From Escherichia phage vB_EcoM_FJ1, in the sequence record MZ170040.1: 64,000 nucleotides of DNA; one strand, given 5' to 3'. Both the position numbers and the translations under genes were made by a program. Under the pieces are notes generated by a model. The model was not told the origin of the DNA and searched no databases. It worked only from the letters and a program-made list of their open reading frames with translations. Positions 6,996 to 61,473 of this stretch are shown piece after piece (position 1 is the stretch's first letter; each line of letters begins with the position of its first letter).

Positions 6996-7007
6996 AAAGG
7001 CCTCCTA

Positions 7008-7220
7008 TCATTTTTGTCCTGTATTTACTTTATGCCGATGCACGGCCTTAACTTTATCAAGGTATTTTTCAAAATTTCGCAATCTAGTATAGTCTGCCGG
7101 AGATTGGTTGAGTGATACTTCTCGACGCAAAGCTGAAATGATATTTCCAACTTCCCTACGAATTTCATCTAATTGAAGAACAGTAAGATTGCGAAGTTGC
7201 TTTTCAGTTAATTGTAGCAT
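7008..7220 (-). CDS. rI.1-like small protein (70 aa)
   Basis: Between tk and rI; TATAAATA box on minus strand ~25 nt upstream. Confidence 0.6.
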
Positions 7221-7245
7221 ATATACCCCTTTAGTTAGATAAACC

Positions 7246-7253
7246 TATTTATA
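7246..7253 (-). promoter_or_regulatory. T4 late promoter box (TATAAATA)
   Basis: Exact TATAAATA on minus strand ~25 nt upstream of 7008..7220 start. Confidence 0.5.
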
Positions 7254-7262
7254 ACTTTTGCA

Positions 7263-7844
7263 CTAACCGAGTTTTTTAGTTAATTCATTCCAATGTTTTC
7301 TACACAAAGAAACATAAATTTCATCACCAATACAGATTTGATTACCTTCTTTAACTGGTGTTCCATCTTCCATTAATCGAGCTGTCATAATCGCTTTTTT
7401 ACCACAATGACAAACTGCCTTTAGTTCAATAAGTTTATCTGCAATCGCTAAAAGTTCTTTAGAACCTTCAAACAATTTTCCAGCGAAATCAGTCCTTAAT
7501 CCATAAGCCATAACAGGAACATTATATGTATCAACAATTCGGCTCAATTGATGCACCTGTTCAGTTTTTAAAAACTGAGCTTCATCTACAAATACGCAAT
7601 GAATATCTTTTTGTGCTTCAGCCCATTTATAGAACTCGAAAATATCCATATCATCTGTAATAATATTCGCTTCCTGCTTAATTCCAATGCGAGAAACGAC
7701 TTCACAGACAGAATCGCGAGTATCAATAGCAGGCTTAAGAACTAATACACTCATTCCACGTTCTTTATAATTATGTGCAGCAGTCAAAAGAGAAGCAGAT
7801 TTTCCAGCATTCATTGCTGCATAAGTAAAAATTAAACTCGCCAT
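7263..7844 (-). CDS. tk: thymidine kinase
   Basis: 193 aa; P-loop NAGKSASLL; zinc-ribbon CHCGKKA...C; same length as T4 Tk. Confidence 0.95.
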   Translation of the reverse strand: MASLIFTYAAMNAGKSASLLTAAHNYKERGMSVLVLKPAIDTRDSVCEVVSRIGIKQEANIITDDMDIFEFYKWAEAQKDIHCVFVDEAQFLKTEQVHQLSRIVDTYNVPVMAYGLRTDFAGKLFEGSKELLAIADKLIELKAVCHCGKKAIMTARLMEDGTPVKEGNQICIGDEIYVSLCRKHWNELTKKLG

Positions 7845-7853
7845 ATCACCTTC

Positions 7854-8045
7854 TTAAAGCGTATTCACATAAGCTATTAATTCATTTTCTTTCTTATCAA
7901 ACCGATCAGCAAATTCTTCCTGCTGTTCGGGAGATAGCGGGCCGTATTCATCATAAAAGGTGTTTGCTTCTGTATGCTCATCTAGAAGTTCATGGATAAG
8001 CTCAAACAATTTATCTTTTTGTTCTTTACTCAGACTCATAACCAT
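7854..8045 (-). CDS. hypothetical small acidic protein (63 aa)
   Basis: ORF track; AAGGTGA SD; tk.x position. Confidence 0.5.
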   Translation of the reverse strand: MVMSLSKEQKDKLFELIHELLDEHTEANTFYDEYGPLSPEQQEEFADRFDKKENELIAYVNTL

Positions 8046-8248
8046 GTCACCTTTAAGCAGTATTCTTCTACATGCTGTTTACGACCTTTCTTATCAATAA
8101 AGGTATATTCAACGAATGTTCCAATGTAGTCTTTATCTACATCATGTGGACTATTAATTGGACATTTAGTACGGCAAATGCGTTCCCATTGACGAATAAT
8201 TACTGCCTTATTCTTTGGGTCATACGGATGTGGATAATGTATATTCAT
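8036..8248 (-). CDS. hypothetical small protein (~70 aa)
   Basis: Trimmed from TTG to ATG; ATGA coupling with macro-domain gene. Confidence 0.45.
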   Translation of the reverse strand: MNIHYPHPYDPKNKAVIIRQWERICRTKCPINSPHDVDKDYIGTFVEYTFIDKKGRKQHVEEYCLKVTWL

Positions 8249-8712
8249 AATAACGGTTCCCAATCAACAATCACAATTTCTAATTTAGAGGAATATGTAT
8301 CTAAAATCCCCTCAATAATATCCCAGTTCCCTTTACCTATGCCTGCTCCAATCCTAGGCATATAGATTGTAGGTTTAATCAGTTTATTTTCACCAAACTC
8401 ATTTAATTCTAACATACAATTCATTAAAGCGGAATACTCAAAATTTGGCCCTGGTTGAAATTGAGTATAAAGATTAAAGCAGTAAGCTTTATGAGTCCTA
8501 AAGTATTTTTCATAGACTGAGTAAGAACCGAGTTTAGTTACATCGCCCCATTCTGTCTGTAATTTATCAGCTTCCAAAATTTTAGGGAAAGCTTTGGTTA
8601 ATTGACCCGCTACGCCTGAACCCATAGTATGAAAACAATTGCATCCATGCGCAATATTTTTACCTTCAGCGAAAAGGGCGACAATATCGCCCTTGATATA
8701 TTTTACAATCAT
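8245..8712 (-). CDS. macro-domain (ADP-ribose binding/processing) protein
   Basis: 155 aa; GDIV...NIAHGCNCFHTMGSGVAGQ resembles macro-domain N..N / GGGV signature. Confidence 0.7.
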   Translation of the reverse strand: MIVKYIKGDIVALFAEGKNIAHGCNCFHTMGSGVAGQLTKAFPKILEADKLQTEWGDVTKLGSYSVYEKYFRTHKAYCFNLYTQFQPGPNFEYSALMNCMLELNEFGENKLIKPTIYMPRIGAGIGKGNWDIIEGILDTYSSKLEIVIVDWEPLL

Positions 8713-9056
8713 CTAGTACTCAATCCTCGATTATAAGAATCTACCAAACGGTCAACCATTGAATGACAAGCGGCTTTATCTTTCTCCTCCGCAACTGAAC
8801 ATTCTAAGGTATTCCACTTTTTAGCATATCGTTTTAATAATGTATCGTTTTTGTATCTACTTGATTTATCTCTTTCTCCGTCTTTATATGCATATATTAA
8901 TTTCTGTGCAAATTCAGCTTGACATGCTTTATTTTTCCCACAATAATCTGCCGCAGTGCGGTTTACATATTCTCTAATTTCAGTATATGATGTATCTGCT
9001 AACGCAGAAGCAGAAAATGAAATTAATCCTATACATAAAACCAAAATTTTAGTCAT
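8709..9056 (-). CDS. small secreted protein (signal peptide), vs-position
   Basis: 115 aa; N-terminal MTKILVLCIGLISFSASALA; four Cys; occupies T4 vs locus position. Confidence 0.6.
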   Translation of the reverse strand: MTKILVLCIGLISFSASALADTSYTEIREYVNRTAADYCGKNKACQAEFAQKLIYAYKDGERDKSSRYKNDTLLKRYAKKWNTLECSVAEEKDKAACHSMVDRLVDSYNRGLSTR

Positions 9057-9594
9057 TTACTATTTCCAAAAGTTTATTATTTTTAAGGTAATTAGCCTTT
9101 TCTAGGACTTCAGAAGCATATTTAGAACCAGCTTTAACATTCCATCCCGAATTATAAGAGGATATTGCCTTTCTTATATCACCCTTATGTATATTTAACC
9201 AATAAGAAAGTTCAATGTACGCCCAGGAAGCTGAATTGGACCGTTTATTCAACATTCTTTTTATTTCAGCATCGGTCATATTATAACCAAGTTCCTTAAC
9301 TCTCGCTCGCATAGTAGGCAAATAATTTTGGAACATTCCGTAGGCGTGATGCTTTGGTTTAGATTTTAAATTAACTCCGCCAGAGCTTTCTTGCCATAAA
9401 ATGGCTGCCATTATATGACCTAATCCGCTCTTGTGGATATTTTTGTGTGTTTTATATTTTCCATCCTTAGAAAATTGTTCCCCGAATTGATACGCGTAAC
9501 GCATGTTATCGAGTTGGACATTACTGAAAGTATGCTCGGAGCTATGTGCCATCATTGAAATGGCCAATAGACCAGCGAGTAGTGCTTTTCTCAT
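9049..9594 (-). CDS. secreted protein with lytic-transglycosylase-like motif (vs.1-position)
   Basis: 181 aa; signal peptide MRKALLAGLLAISMMAHS; ESSGG...YGMFQ resembles SLT catalytic motif. Confidence 0.6.
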   Translation of the reverse strand: MRKALLAGLLAISMMAHSSEHTFSNVQLDNMRYAYQFGEQFSKDGKYKTHKNIHKSGLGHIMAAILWQESSGGVNLKSKPKHHAYGMFQNYLPTMRARVKELGYNMTDAEIKRMLNKRSNSASWAYIELSYWLNIHKGDIRKAISSYNSGWNVKAGSKYASEVLEKANYLKNNKLLEIVND

Positions 9595-9601
9595 GCTTAC
9601 C

Positions 9602-10063
9602 TCATTGAGTTTTAATTACTGCTTTAGAAGCCTTTCCTGGTAAACGACGACTGTTGATAATTGCCATCCTGCATTGAAGTGACGGGTTTTTGAACTTCTC
9701 ATTAGGCTTACAAACCGTAAATCCAAGCCAAAGATTTCCATCTGTAATTTCCAAACGCCCAGGACGATATTCAACCCCATCAATAAAATCCTCGTCAATG
9801 TCAGGACGCGGAGGCATACTCAGGAATTCATTAACTTCTAAAACATGGTCTTTTATTTTATGGAATAATTCAAAAACGTATGTCTCATCAATCTCCCGTT
9901 GAATTGCGCGATCAAGAAGATGCTGAGAATATTTTAGATGAAACGATGAGACTCCTGCTGCTTTTGATGCCTCACGAATCTCATTGTTAATTTGACGAAA
10001 CTCCGACTCAAAGTGACGACGAAGCTTATTTCGACGGATAAAAACTTCTGTATTGATAGTCAT
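9602..10063 (-). CDS. regB: RegB site-specific endoribonuclease
   Basis: 153 aa; near-identical to T4 RegB as recalled; strong early promoter (GTTTAC / TGGTATAAT) upstream. Confidence 0.92.
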   Translation of the reverse strand: MTINTEVFIRRNKLRRHFESEFRQINNEIREASKAAGVSSFHLKYSQHLLDRAIQREIDETYVFELFHKIKDHVLEVNEFLSMPPRPDIDEDFIDGVEYRPGRLEITDGNLWLGFTVCKPNEKFKNPSLQCRMAIINSRRLPGKASKAVIKTQ

Positions 10064-10090
10064 GTTATTCTCCTCTTAACTGATAGAAAA

Positions 10091-10121
10091 ATTATACCAC
10101 AGTCAAGAGGAAAAGTAAACA
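10091..10121 (-). promoter_or_regulatory. T4-type early promoter for regB
   Basis: Minus strand GTTTAC -35 and near-consensus TGGTATAAT extended -10, ~30 nt upstream of regB ATG. Confidence 0.7.
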
Positions 10122-10122
10122 G

Positions 10123-10401
10123 TTATTCTTTAAATCTAATCAATTTATTCATAGACTTTGAAACTTCTGCACGAACCTCATGTAGATTTTTGAGCTGTTC
10201 AAGACGCTGCTCATAGTAAGCAATTTCATCTTCTTCGAGACAGTCCTGTGAATCTTCTTTAAGATAACGTGCATAGTCCTGGAAAGCTTTACGGACTACT
10301 TCCTGGAAGTCATCAAGACTTTGAATTTTCTTAGGAGCAACAGATACACGACGAGGGGCAGTATAATACTCATAACCAAACCCTGCGCTTAATTGAGCCA
10401 T
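10123..10401 (-). CDS. hypothetical small protein (~92 aa)
   Basis: Track ORF starts at GTG; trimmed to ATG overlapping upstream stop. Confidence 0.5.
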
Positions 10402-10667
10402 TAGTATTTTTCCTCTGGTTGGAACACAGCACGGCAAGCCCACATACTGGCTTCTTTGAGTTTCGTTTTAGCAATAGTTAACTGATCGAGGCTTTCGGCG
10501 TAATTCTTCGCGAGTTCATCATCTTCACAGCTATCAAATGCTTCCCAGAATTCATCATATAAAGCATCAAAGATAAGCCCTAAACGAACTTCAGCATCTT
10601 TGATAGCATTCACTTTACTGATTTTATCGTCAGTATGTGGTTTATAACCTTTAATGTCTTCAATCAT
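10401..10667 (-). CDS. hypothetical small acidic protein (88 aa)
   Basis: ORF track; translationally coupled chain; vs.3-vs.5 position. Confidence 0.55.
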
Positions 10668-59708: not shown

Positions 59709-61217
59709 ATGGATATTAAAGTACATTTTCACGACTTCAGTCATGTACGCATCGATTGTGAAGAGAGCACGTTCCACGAATTAAGAGATTTCTTTTCGTT
59801 TGAGGCCGATGGATATAGATTTAATCCTCGCTTCAGATATGGCAACTGGGATGGACGAATCCGTCTTTTAGATTATAATCGTCTTCTTCCATTTGGCTTA
59901 GTCGGGCAAATTAAAAAGTTCTGTGATAACTTTGGCTATAAAGCCTGGATTGACCCGCAAATTAACGAAAAAGAAGAATTATCAAGAAAAGATTTTGATG
60001 AATGGCTTTCTAAATTAGAAATCTATTCAGGAAATAAAAGAATTGAACCGCACTGGTATCAAAAAGATGCAGTGTTCGAAGGATTAGTTAATCGTCGTAG
60101 AATTCTTAATCTTCCAACATCCGCTGGTAAATCTTTAATTCAAGCTTTGCTTGCGCGATATTATTTGGAAAATTATGAAGGTAAAATTCTTATCATTGTT
60201 CCAACAACTGCTCTGACAACTCAGATGGCTGATGACTTCGTCGACTATCGTTTATTCAGTCATGCAATGATAAAGAAAATTGGCGGCGGAGCATCAAAAG
60301 ATGATAAATATAAAAATGATGCACCAGTCGTTGTTGGTACATGGCAAACTGTAGTAAAACAACCGAAAGAATGGTTCTCACAGTTTGGAATGATGATGAA
60401 TGATGAATGCCATCTTGCTACAGGAAAAAGTATTTCATCTATCATATCAGGTTTAAATAACTGTATGTTTAAATTTGGTTTGTCTGGTTCATTACGTGAC
60501 GGCAAAGCCAATATCATGCAGTATGTTGGAATGTTTGGTGAAATATTTAAGCCAGTAACGACCTCTAAATTAATGGAAGATGGACAAGTAACTGAGTTAA
60601 AAATTAATAGTATTTTTCTTCGCTATCCCGATGAGTTCACTACTAAATTAAAGGGAAAAACTTATCAAGAAGAAATAAAAATTATTACTGGGCTTAGTAA
60701 AAGAAATAAATGGATCGCTAAATTAGCTATTAAGCTTGCACAAAAAGATGAAAACGCTTTTGTCATGTTTAAACATGTATCGCATGGTAAAGCTATTTTC
60801 GATTTAATTAAAAATGAATACGATAAAGTTTATTACGTATCAGGGGAAGTTGATACCGAAACCCGCAATATAATGAAAACCTTAGCTGAAAATGGTAAAG
60901 GAATAATTATAGTAGCGAGTTATGGTGTATTTTCTACTGGTATTTCAGTTAAAAATCTGCATCATGTTGTTTTAGCGCACGGCGTTAAATCAAAAATCAT
61001 TGTATTACAAACAATCGGTCGTGTATTACGTAAGCATGGTTCTAAGACAATAGCAACTGTCTGGGACCTCATAGATGATTGTGGCGTTAAGCCAAAATCT
61101 GCTAATACGAAAAAGAAATATGTTCATTTGAACTATCTTTTAAAACACGGCATTGATCGTATTCAGCGCTACGCAGATGAAAAATTTAATTACGTAATGA
61201 AAACAGTTAATTTATAA
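59709..61217 (+). CDS. uvsW: UvsW helicase (SF2)
   Basis: 502 aa; Walker A PTSAGKS, DExH-like MMNDECH. Confidence 0.9.
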   Translation: MDIKVHFHDFSHVRIDCEESTFHELRDFFSFEADGYRFNPRFRYGNWDGRIRLLDYNRLLPFGLVGQIKKFCDNFGYKAWIDPQINEKEELSRKDFDEWLSKLEIYSGNKRIEPHWYQKDAVFEGLVNRRRILNLPTSAGKSLIQALLARYYLENYEGKILIIVPTTALTTQMADDFVDYRLFSHAMIKKIGGGASKDDKYKNDAPVVVGTWQTVVKQPKEWFSQFGMMMNDECHLATGKSISSIISGLNNCMFKFGLSGSLRDGKANIMQYVGMFGEIFKPVTTSKLMEDGQVTELKINSIFLRYPDEFTTKLKGKTYQEEIKIITGLSKRNKWIAKLAIKLAQKDENAFVMFKHVSHGKAIFDLIKNEYDKVYYVSGEVDTETRNIMKTLAENGKGIIIVASYGVFSTGISVKNLHHVVLAHGVKSKIIVLQTIGRVLRKHGSKTIATVWDLIDDCGVKPKSANTKKKYVHLNYLLKHGIDRIQRYADEKFNYVMKTVNL

Positions 61218-61242
61218 GGGCTTCGGCCCTTTGGAGAAAAAG

Positions 61243-61473
61243 ATGTTACTAGGATTTAAACAATTTCTTTATGAAGCTTCTATTGATGAATTTATGGGTA
61301 AAATTGCCTCTTGTCAAACATTAGAAGGTTTAGAAGAACTTGAAGCTTATTATAAGAAAAGAGTCAAAGAAACTGAATTAAAAGATACTGATGACATCTC
61401 TGTAAGAGATGCTTTGGCAGGAAAAAGAGCTGAATTAGAAGATTCAGACGATGAAGTAGAAGAAAGCTTTTAA
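61243..61473 (+). CDS. uvsW.1: UvsW.1 small acidic protein
   Basis: 76 aa from ATG (MLLGFKQFLYEA...); track start is an upstream TTG. Confidence 0.7.
   Translation: MLLGFKQFLYEASIDEFMGKIASCQTLEGLEELEAYYKKRVKETELKDTDDISVRDALAGKRAELEDSDDEVEESF

What the first reader, a model, noticed from the sequence alone, without database searches (positions are those of the whole stretch)
8245..8712. Phage macro-domain protein in the tk-vs early cluster
The 155-aa protein carries macro-domain-like signatures (GDIV...NIAHGCNCFHTMGSGVAGQ). Macro domains bind or hydrolyse ADP-ribose derivatives. In a phage that (like T4) presumably ADP-ribosylates host proteins, or that faces ADP-ribosylating or NAD-derived-signal defences, this is a plausible counter-defence or regulatory enzyme.
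Basis: partly seen in the sequence, partly recalled or inferred. Interest (0 to 1): 0.5.

Follow-up and report, generated by a model that had tools for sequence, protein, structure and literature searches.

The report
T4 Tk.4/AdfM anti-DarT2 macrodomain

Summary
The ORF at 8245..8712 (minus strand, 155 aa) is real. It is 100% identical to phage T4 Tk.4 (NP_049723.1). The window is a T4-like Tequatrovirus.

The protein is a macrodomain by three tests: Pfam Macro above the curated threshold, an AlphaFold2 model at pLDDT 94, and Foldseek top hits to TARG1, BT1257, Poa1p and DarG.

A 2025 preprint (HIDEN-SEQ) found tk.4 as the only T4 gene needed on a DarTG2 host. A clean knockout sensitised T4, and the gene was named adfM.

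What I add is mechanistic. Tk.4 is not a DarG-type macrodomain. The catalytic lysine of DarG (K80), TARG1 (K84) and PhiKZ "AdfM" is an invariant glutamine (Q84) in the Tk.4 family, and TARG1 D125 is Gly/Ala. [quoted passage not shown]

Tk.4 lacks the long mobile loop of that subclass. Its bacterial relatives are stand-alone genes without a DarT neighbour.

The likely mechanism is Gln-dependent, Lys-independent removal of ADP-ribose from thymidine in phage ssDNA. This is inferred; no biochemistry on Tk.4 was found.

The parts
8245..8712 (-). tk.4 / adfM coding sequence, 155 aa, single macrodomain
   Evidence: ORF. 100% identical to T4 NP_049723.1. Pfam Macro. AF2 pLDDT 94. Foldseek hits to TARG1, BT1257, Poa1p and DarG.
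8635..8649 (-). Codons for H22-G23-C24-N25-C26 (the HGCNC motif). N25 is the equivalent of SCO6735 Asn27 and PhiKZ AdfM Asn23. H22 is the equivalent of SCO6735 His24 and Poa1p His23.
   Evidence: G23, C24, N25 and C26 are invariant and H22 nearly invariant (at least 90%) in alignment A1. Mapping from alignments. Roles of the equivalent residues come from PMC9411070 and PMC13309987.
8605..8625 (-). Codons for M30-G31-S32-G33-V34-A35-G36, the first glycine-rich substrate/diphosphate-binding loop of the macrodomain
   Evidence: G33 and A35 are invariant. G33 is invariant even across DarG, TARG1, Poa1p and BT1257.
8461..8475 (-). Codons for N80-L81-Y82-T83-Q84, the end of the central strand. Q84 occupies the position of the catalytic Lys of TARG1 (K84), DarG (K80) and PhiKZ AdfM (FPTK), and of the essential Gln85 of SCO6735.
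   Evidence: hhalign against TARG1 and MAFFT alignment A2. Q84, N80 and Y82 are invariant in 30/30 and 79/79 sequences. The model has a strand at residues 75-84.
8323..8358 (-). Codons for P119-R-I-G-A-G-I-G126-K-G-N-W130, the phosphate-binding loop. G126 lies at the position of TARG1 Asp125 and SCO6735 Ala130.
   Evidence: P119, I121, G122, G124 and W130 are invariant. Column 126 is Ala in 71 and Gly in 8 of 79 sequences. Alignment to TARG1.
8709..8712 (-). ATGA overlap of the vs stop codon and the tk.4 start codon (translational coupling)
   Evidence: Read directly from the sequence and the ORF coordinates.
8245..8248 (-). ATGA overlap of the tk.4 stop codon and the start of the tk.3 homologue (8036..8248, 70 aa)
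   Evidence: Sequence. T4 tk.3 is 213 nt and overlaps the tk.4 stop in the same way (T4 coordinates 60713-60925 and 60922-61389).
10091..10119 (-). Candidate sigma-70-like early promoter upstream of regB (TTTACT-17-TATAAT with TG). It could drive the co-oriented run regB-vs.1-vs-tk.4. This is a candidate only.
   Evidence: Consensus scan. The number of promoter-like sites in the region is not above chance (15 found, 13.9 expected), so this is weak evidence.

Best explanation
The gene encodes Tk.4 (AdfM) of a T4-like phage. It is a stand-alone 155-aa macrodomain of the ALC1/TARG1-like class, made early in infection from the regB-vs.1-vs-tk.4 gene run.

Its role is to neutralise the bacterial DarTG2 defence. 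DarT2 attaches ADP-ribose to N3 of thymidine in single-stranded phage DNA and so blocks replication. Tk.4 most likely binds the ADP-ribosyl-thymidine and hydrolyses the ribose-base bond, releasing free ADP-ribose and restoring the DNA.

The active site is of the glutamine type described for SCO6735, not the lysine type of DarG and TARG1. Gln84, held in place by Asn25, would orient the distal ribose, and a water molecule held by the backbone of the HGCNC loop would start the reaction.

What is shown: the gene's identity, its fold and its active-site residues (this work), and the need for tk.4 on DarTG2 hosts (published genetics).

What is inferred: hydrolysis of thymidine-ADP-ribose by Tk.4 itself, the role of Gln84, and early transcription from the regB promoter.
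For: Identity: 155/155 identical to T4 Tk.4, with the same gene order as T4.

Fold: Pfam Macro above threshold. AF2 pLDDT 94, pTM 0.89. Foldseek probability 1.00 to TARG1 (3e-10), BT1257, Poa1p and DarG bound to ADP-ribose (3.5e-8). The PADLOC DarG model matches at 1.3e-9 over residues 3-153.

Function: in bioRxiv 10.1101/2025.11.20.689424, tk.4 is the only transposon-library hit on DarTG2, and a clean knockout is sensitised. T4 lacking adfA and adfN stays DarTG2-resistant, so another factor was expected (PMC11825919).

Mechanism: Q84 aligns with TARG1 K84, DarG K80 and SCO6735 Q85, and it is invariant in 30/30 and 79/79 family members. SCO6735, which has the same Gln/Ala pair, cleaves DarT-made thymidine-ADP-ribose faster than DarG. 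Its Q85A and Q85E mutants are inactive (PMC9411070). The equivalent Asn in PhiKZ AdfM matters for activity (N23A; PMC13309987).
Against: No biochemical assay of Tk.4 on ADP-ribosylated DNA was found in the library. The preprint itself only says hydrolysis 'seems likely'.

Tk.4 lacks the lysine that is essential in DarG and TARG1 (PMC8501950). It also lacks the 5-residue-longer basic mobile loop that the authors link to SCO6735's high DNA activity. The Q-to-P spacing is 33-34 residues in the Tk.4 family, against 37-38 in SCO6735 and BT1257. SCO6735 Val25 is Gly23 here.

Bacterial relatives are not next to a DarT gene, so the family's ancestral substrate may be something else.

The genetic result comes from one preprint. 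I did not see sufficiency reported, that is, Tk.4 alone rescuing DarT2 toxicity.
Confidence: 0.8

Rival explanations
1. Tk.4 protects mainly by binding and inhibiting DarT2, or by masking modified sites, rather than by hydrolysis.
For: A catalytically dead SCO6735 (Q85A) still inhibits DarT in vitro, more strongly than DarG or TARG1 (PMC9411070). Tk.4 lacks the DarG/TARG1 catalytic lysine.
Against: The whole ADP-ribose-binding and Gln/Asn active-site set is invariant across distant phage and bacterial members that have no DarT partner. That pattern fits an enzyme better than a toxin binder. Tk.4 also lacks the C-terminal DarT-binding domain of DarG: it is 155 aa and scores 30 bits on NCBIfam DarG against a cutoff of 250.
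Confidence: 0.08
2. Its main substrate is a small ADP-ribose derivative (ADP-ribose-1''-phosphate or O-acetyl-ADP-ribose), as in yeast Poa1p and as implied by the database label 'phosphatase'. The DarTG2 effect would then be secondary.
For: The HxCNC motif is shared with Poa1p, which reads HSCNC. Poa1p is among the best sequence and fold hits. RefSeq and PHROG call it a 'phosphatase'. Bacterial relatives sit in housekeeping contexts.
Against: The 'phosphatase' label is transferred from a motif, not tested. The only phenotype found in a genome-wide screen is specific to DarTG2. Poa1p has Ser, not Gln, at position 84, and it carries a large insertion that Tk.4 lacks.
Confidence: 0.07
3. It reverses or tunes ADP-ribosylation (or RNAylation) made by the phage's own transferases Alt, ModA and ModB.
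For: T4 encodes three ADP-ribosyltransferases (established knowledge). SCO6735 and TARG1 also remove Glu/Asp-linked protein ADP-ribose (PMC5087735; PMC9411070).
Against: Alt and the Mod enzymes modify arginine (established knowledge). ALC1-like macrodomains are reported on Glu/Asp esters and thymine/uracil N-glycosidic links, not on arginine. tk.4 is dispensable on a host without DarTG2.
Confidence: 0.03
4. It counters an RNA-directed or signalling-type defence, for example uracil ADP-ribosylation of RNA or Thoeris-type ADP-ribose-derived signals, in addition to or instead of DarT2.
For: SCO6735, TARG1 and DarG also reverse uracil ADP-ribosylation on ssRNA (PMC13036486).
Against: No bacterial defence using uracil ADP-ribosylation was found in the papers read. 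T4 remains sensitive to the mRNA ADP-ribosyltransferase CmdTAC despite carrying tk.4 (PMC11618068). There is no evidence for a Thoeris link.
Confidence: 0.02

Closest known systems
T4 Tk.4 = AdfM (anti-DarT factor Macrodomain), bioRxiv 10.1101/2025.11.20.689424
   Same: Identical protein (155/155) in the same position between vs and tk.3.
   Different: Nothing at the protein level. The host phage differs from T4 by about 3% in DNA and in the tk.1/tk.2 segment.
SCO6735 (Streptomyces coelicolor) and BT1257 (Bacteroides thetaiotaomicron), the Gln-type subclass of ALC1-like macrodomains
   Same: Gln at the TARG1 K84 / DarG K80 position, and Ala or Gly at the TARG1 D125 position. The His and Asn of the first loop are conserved (H22/N25 against H24/N27). 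BT1257 is the best sequence hit in the PDB, at 8.5e-16 with the family profile. SCO6735 is a proven thymidine-ADP-ribose DNA hydrolase.
   Different: Only about 28% identity to BT1257, the one member compared directly. The mobile loop is short, as in TARG1 and DarG. Gly replaces Val/Ile25. Tk.4 has the family-specific invariants C24, C26 (Asp in SCO6735 and BT1257) and D49.
DarG antitoxin macrodomain (Thermus aquaticus, M. tuberculosis) and PhiKZ gp104, also named 'AdfM'
   Same: Same fold and class, and the same biological opponent, DarT2. The PADLOC DarG model matches.
   Different: DarG and PhiKZ gp104 keep the catalytic Lys (FPTK). PhiKZ gp104 matches Mtb DarG at 9e-25, whereas Tk.4 matches only at 5e-4 to 6e-3 as a single sequence. 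Tk.4 has no DarT-binding C-terminal domain. The two 'AdfM' proteins are therefore independent recruits from different subclasses.
Human TARG1 (OARD1)
   Same: Best Foldseek hit. It has the same short loop and also removes thymidine-linked ADP-ribose (PMC8501950).
   Different: The Lys84/Asp125 dyad is replaced by Gln84/Gly126.
Yeast Poa1p (ADP-ribose-1''-phosphate phosphatase)
   Same: HxCNC motif and a close profile score of 4.5e-14. It is the source of the 'Poa1p-like / phosphatase' annotations.
   Different: Ser at position 84, Phe152 where Tk.4 has Gly126, and a large helical insertion. Poa1p is a small-molecule phosphatase.

Membership tests
Macro domain (Pfam PF01661) | Profile score above the curated gathering threshold | tested here: met
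   27.7 bits against a cutoff of 22, E=2.9e-6, covering profile positions 2-113 of 118.
Macro domain (Pfam PF01661) | Three-layer alpha/beta/alpha fold with two glycine-rich loops lining the ADP-ribose cleft | tested here: met
   AF2 pLDDT 94 with alternating strands and helices. Foldseek probability 1.00 to many solved macrodomains. The MGSGVAG and IGAGIGKG loops are conserved.
ALC1/TARG1-like macrodomain class | Closest structural and sequence neighbours are TARG1, DarG, SCO6735/BT1257 and ALC1 rather than MacroD or PARG types | tested here: met
   The top 25 Foldseek hits are TARG1, BT1257, Poa1p, DarG, TTHA0132 with designed hydrolases derived from it, and ALC1. Viral and MacroD-type macrodomains come later, with lower TM-scores. 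PDB profile search agrees.
T4 AdfM (Tk.4) | Orthology to T4 tk.4: sequence identity and synteny | tested here: met
   155/155 identity, lying between vs and tk.3 as in T4.
T4 AdfM (Tk.4) | Loss of the gene sensitises the phage to DarTG2 | not testable with these tools
   Reported for T4 in bioRxiv 10.1101/2025.11.20.689424. Not tested for this phage.
DarG antitoxin (DarTG2) | Catalytic lysine (Taq DarG K80) at the end of the central strand | tested here: not met
   The position is Q84, invariant in the family. K80 is essential in DarG (PMC11543638; PMC8501950).
DarG antitoxin (DarTG2) | C-terminal DarT-binding domain, seen as a full-length match to the equivalog model | tested here: not met
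   The protein is 155 aa. NCBIfam antitoxin_DarG scores 30.3 bits against a cutoff of 250 and matches only profile positions 2-146 of 338.
DarG antitoxin (DarTG2) | Encoded next to a darT toxin gene | tested here: not met
   The neighbours in the window are vs and tk.3. There is no DarT2-like sequence in the window or within 6 kb in 80 bacterial loci. This used a single DarT2 query, so sensitivity is limited.
TARG1 | Lys84/Asp125 catalytic dyad | tested here: not met
   Q84 and G126 at the aligned positions.
SCO6735/BT1257 subclass | Gln at the Lys position and Ala (a small residue) at the Asp position | tested here: met
   Q84. Position 126 is Gly here and Ala in 71 of 79 relatives. Feature as defined in PMC5087735.
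SCO6735/BT1257 subclass | Asn (SCO6735 Asn27) that positions the Gln | tested here: met
   N25 aligns with it and is invariant.
SCO6735/BT1257 subclass | Mobile loop five residues longer than in DarG and TARG1 | tested here: not met
   The Q-to-PB-loop spacing is 34 in Tk.4, with family modes of 33-34. It is 33 in TARG1 and DarG, and 37-38 in SCO6735 and BT1257.
SCO6735/BT1257 subclass | Val or Ile at SCO6735 position 25, whose backbone holds the proposed catalytic water | tested here: not met
   The aligned residue is the invariant G23. Because the proposed role is through the backbone, this does not exclude the same chemistry.
Poa1p-like ADP-ribose-1''-phosphate phosphatase | Residues probed in the Poa1p structures (His23, Ser30, Phe152) | tested here: inconclusive
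   His23 corresponds to H22, which is conserved. Ser30 corresponds to T29, which is variable in the family (Thr in 42 of 79). Phe152 corresponds to G126, so it is absent. The roles of these residues were not checked in a paper.
Poa1p-like ADP-ribose-1''-phosphate phosphatase | Phosphatase activity on Appr1p | not testable with these tools
   The 'phosphatase' label in RefSeq and PHROGs is an annotation transfer.

The most novel reading that the evidence does not exclude
The Tk.4 clade may be a separate, uncharacterised subclass of ALC1-like macrodomains. Its signature is HGCNC...D49...NxYTQ, a short loop and two invariant cysteines.

Its many stand-alone chromosomal bacterial members include Ruegeria genes lying between rpoC and rpsL. 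This suggests a native substrate other than DarT2-modified DNA, for example uracil-ADP-ribosylated RNA or another base or metabolite adduct. T4 would then have borrowed a housekeeping repair enzyme rather than a defence-system antitoxin, and the chemistry could differ from both the Lys-type and the SCO6735-type mechanisms.
Probability: 0.2. Interest if true: 0.45.

Novelty: already known. Interest (0 to 1): 0.22.

Why it matters
The gene shows how a T-even phage survives DNA ADP-ribosylation by DarTG2. It completes a layered set of anti-DarT factors in T4: AdfA, AdfN (a NADAR enzyme acting on guanine adducts) and AdfM (a macrodomain acting on thymine adducts).

The useful new point for specialists is small but testable. 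T4 AdfM and PhiKZ AdfM share a name and a target, yet they come from different macrodomain subclasses with different key residues, Gln against Lys. Results on one should therefore not be transferred to the other. Q84 and N25 are the residues to mutate in T4.

Relatives occur in 2,750 phage records, mostly large myoviruses. That suggests thymidine, or similar, ADP-ribosylation is a common pressure on these phages.

Tried and rejected
1. DarG membership was rejected. The catalytic Lys, the C-terminal domain and a DarT neighbour are all absent.

2. I looked for a conserved partner gene around 80 bacterial relatives. No neighbour family spans more than 14 loci, and those found are lineage synteny: HAD hydrolase, alpha/beta hydrolase, EamA transporter, RpoC, ribosomal proteins S12 and S7, and EF-G. 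A tblastn search with P. aeruginosa DarT2 gave only E of about 1 or worse. A profile-based DarT search was not possible offline, so distant DarT relatives could have been missed.

3. hhalign of the family against PhiKZ gp104 placed the FPTK motif two residues out of register in a low-confidence stretch. I relied instead on the TARG1 hhalign, the MAFFT alignment, and the published structure-based equivalence of SCO6735 and BT1257 Gln with TARG1 Lys.

4. The promoter and terminator scan gave no more sites than chance, so no transcription unit can be claimed from sequence alone.

5. The DarG-inhibitor preprint had no information on K80. The CmdTAC paper mentions macrodomains only in its reference list. 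The JACS and NAR 2026 papers did not test phage macrodomains.

The Q84-N25 geometry is therefore untested.

Full report
**Observation.** The window carries an ATG-to-stop ORF of 155 aa at 8245..8712 on the minus strand. It lies between a 193-aa thymidine kinase ORF (7263..7844) and a 115-aa ORF (8709..9056).

A megablast of 7000-10100 finds 731 phage records. The best is Shigella phage ESh31 at 99.1%. The features annotated under the match are thymidine kinase, 'macro domain protein / Poa1p-like / phosphatase / tk.4', valyl-tRNA synthetase modifier and RegB. In the T4 RefSeq record the gene order is tk, tk.1-tk.3, tk.4, vs, vs.1, regB.

The window's protein is 155/155 identical to T4 Tk.4, NP_049723.1. 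The surrounding DNA is about 97% identical to T4, and the tk.1/tk.2 segment is replaced. The window is therefore a close T4 relative, not T4 itself.

**What the protein is.**
- Pfam Macro (PF01661) matches above its gathering score: 27.7 bits against 22, E=2.9e-6.
- PHROG 335 matches at 1.3e-65.
- Sequence search of the PDB gives BT1257, Poa1p, SCO6735, DarG and TARG1.
- An AlphaFold2 model built on a 30-sequence alignment has pLDDT 94 and pTM 0.89.
- Foldseek places the model with TARG1, BT1257, Poa1p, DarG and ALC1, all at probability 1.00. This group is ahead of viral and MacroD-type macrodomains.

The protein is a single-domain macrodomain of the ALC1/TARG1-like class.

**What is already known.** The HIDEN-SEQ preprint (bioRxiv 10.1101/2025.11.20.689424, November 2025) screened a T4 transposon library on a DarTG2-expressing host. 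It found one significant hit, tk.4. A clean knockout made T4 DarTG2-sensitive. The authors named the gene adfM and proposed, without biochemistry, that it removes ADP-ribose from DNA.

This fits an earlier result: T4 lacking adfA and adfN remains DarTG2-resistant (PMC11825919).

A 2026 Cell Reports paper gave the same name to PhiKZ gp104. It showed in vitro removal of thymidine-linked ADP-ribose, reduced by an N23A mutation (PMC13309987).

The finding is already known.

**Anatomy of the active site.** Here the analysis goes a little beyond the literature I could find.
- DarG needs Lys80 and TARG1 needs Lys84 to cleave thymidine-ADP-ribose (PMC11543638; PMC8501950).
- In a profile-sequence alignment with TARG1 and in a MAFFT alignment with TARG1, two DarG macrodomains, PhiKZ gp104, BT1257 and Poa1p, that lysine column is Gln84 in Tk.4.
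- Gln84 is invariant in 30 phage and metagenome relatives and in 78 bacterial relatives plus Tk.4.
- TARG1 Asp125 aligns with Gly126, which is Ala in most relatives.
- PhiKZ gp104 keeps the FPTK lysine and matches M. tuberculosis DarG at 9e-25. Tk.4 matches DarG only weakly as a single sequence.

The two proteins called AdfM are therefore independent recruits from different subclasses.

**Link to SCO6735.** The Gln/Ala pattern is the one described for SCO6735 and BT1257 (PMC5087735). For SCO6735 it has been shown that:
- the enzyme removes DarT-made thymidine-ADP-ribose from DNA faster than DarG or TARG1;
- it rescues DarT toxicity;
- Q85A and Q85E mutants are inactive;
- Asn27 positions Gln85;
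- a backbone-held water at Val25 is proposed to start catalysis (PMC9411070).

Mapping through the alignments gives Tk.4 H22, G23, N25 and Q84 for SCO6735 H24, V25, N27 and Q85. The missing lysine is therefore not evidence against a DNA de-ADP-ribosylase. It points to the Gln-type mechanism.

Tk.4 is not a plain SCO6735 family member, however.
- The 'mobile loop' that defines that subclass is short in Tk.4 and its whole family. The Q-to-P spacing is 33-34 residues, as in TARG1 and DarG, against 37-38.
- Val25 is replaced by Gly.
- The clade has its own invariants, Cys24 and Asp49, plus Cys26 where SCO6735 and BT1257 have Asp.
- Part of that signature, HxCNC, is shared with Poa1p.

**Context of relatives.** tblastn finds the protein in 2,750 phage records. 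Most are large myoviruses: T4-like, rV5-like, FelixO1-like and Pakpuna-like.

In 80 bacterial genome loci the homologue is a stand-alone gene of about 150 aa. No DarT2-like gene lies within 6 kb. No neighbour family is shared by more than 14 loci. The shared ones are housekeeping synteny: HAD hydrolase, alpha/beta hydrolase, EamA transporter, RpoC, ribosomal proteins S12 and S7, and EF-G.

So the clade is not derived from an obvious DarTG operon. This leaves room for a different ancestral substrate.

**Expression.** vs, tk.4 and tk.3 are linked by ATGA stop/start overlaps. The genes from regB to tk are co-oriented. A promoter-like site lies upstream of regB (10119-10091), but promoter-like sites in the region are no more frequent than chance. 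Early transcription is taken from the T4 literature label 'early region' (record X04567) and is not shown here.

**Mechanism and rivals.** The best explanation, at confidence 0.8, is this. Tk.4/AdfM binds ADP-ribosyl-thymidine in phage ssDNA and hydrolyses it by a Gln84/Asn25-dependent, lysine-independent mechanism. That reverses the DarT2 damage so replication can proceed.

The rivals are:
- protection by binding DarT2 (SCO6735 Q85A still inhibits DarT);
- a Poa1p-like small-molecule role;
- reversal of the phage's own Alt/Mod modifications;
- action on RNA uracil adducts or signalling molecules.

None of these is excluded by computation, but none has direct support. The only genome-wide phenotype is specific to DarTG2.

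**Verdict.** The residual interest is threefold. The T4 enzyme's activity has not been shown biochemically. It has a Gln-type active site, which differs from that of the DarG-like PhiKZ AdfM. And its clade is distinct from SCO6735.

Noticed in passing
window 7845-8045: The T4 tk.1/tk.2 segment is not conserved here. blastn against T4 breaks between window positions 7844 and 7980, and the window has a single 63-aa ORF (7854..8045, minus strand) where T4 has tk.1 and tk.2.
   Followed up: partly
window 10401-10667 (-): An 88-aa ORF is 92% identical to T4 Vs.4. From my own knowledge (not checked here), Vs.4 is the anti-CBASS sponge Acb2. If so, two counter-defence genes (adfM and acb2) lie within 2 kb.
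   Followed up: partly
window 8036-8263 (-): the ORF listing starts the tk.3 homologue at a TTG (8263, 75 aa), overlapping tk.4 by 19 nt. The ATG at 8248 gives the 70 aa of T4 Tk.3 and an ATGA overlap with the tk.4 stop codon. The same ATGA arrangement links vs and tk.4 at 8709-8712.
   Followed up: yes
literature: T4 Tk.4 against PhiKZ gp104: The name AdfM is used for two non-orthologous macrodomains. T4 Tk.4 is Gln-type and closest to BT1257, SCO6735 and Poa1p. PhiKZ gp104 is Lys-type and matches Mtb DarG at 9e-25.
   Followed up: yes
L014, L021, L023, L026, L031, L048, L052, L053, L063, L064, L074, L075 (Ruegeria): In Ruegeria genomes the Tk.4-like macrodomain gene sits in the conserved rpoC / rpsL-rpsG-fusA neighbourhood, next to an EamA transporter. 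This is a housekeeping context rather than a defence island.
   Followed up: partly
window 9049-9594 (-): The Vs.1 homologue (181 aa) starts with what looks, by eye, like a signal-peptide N-terminus (MRKALLAGLLAISMMAHS). The vs product (115 aa) also begins with a hydrophobic leader-like segment. Neither was examined further.
   Followed up: no
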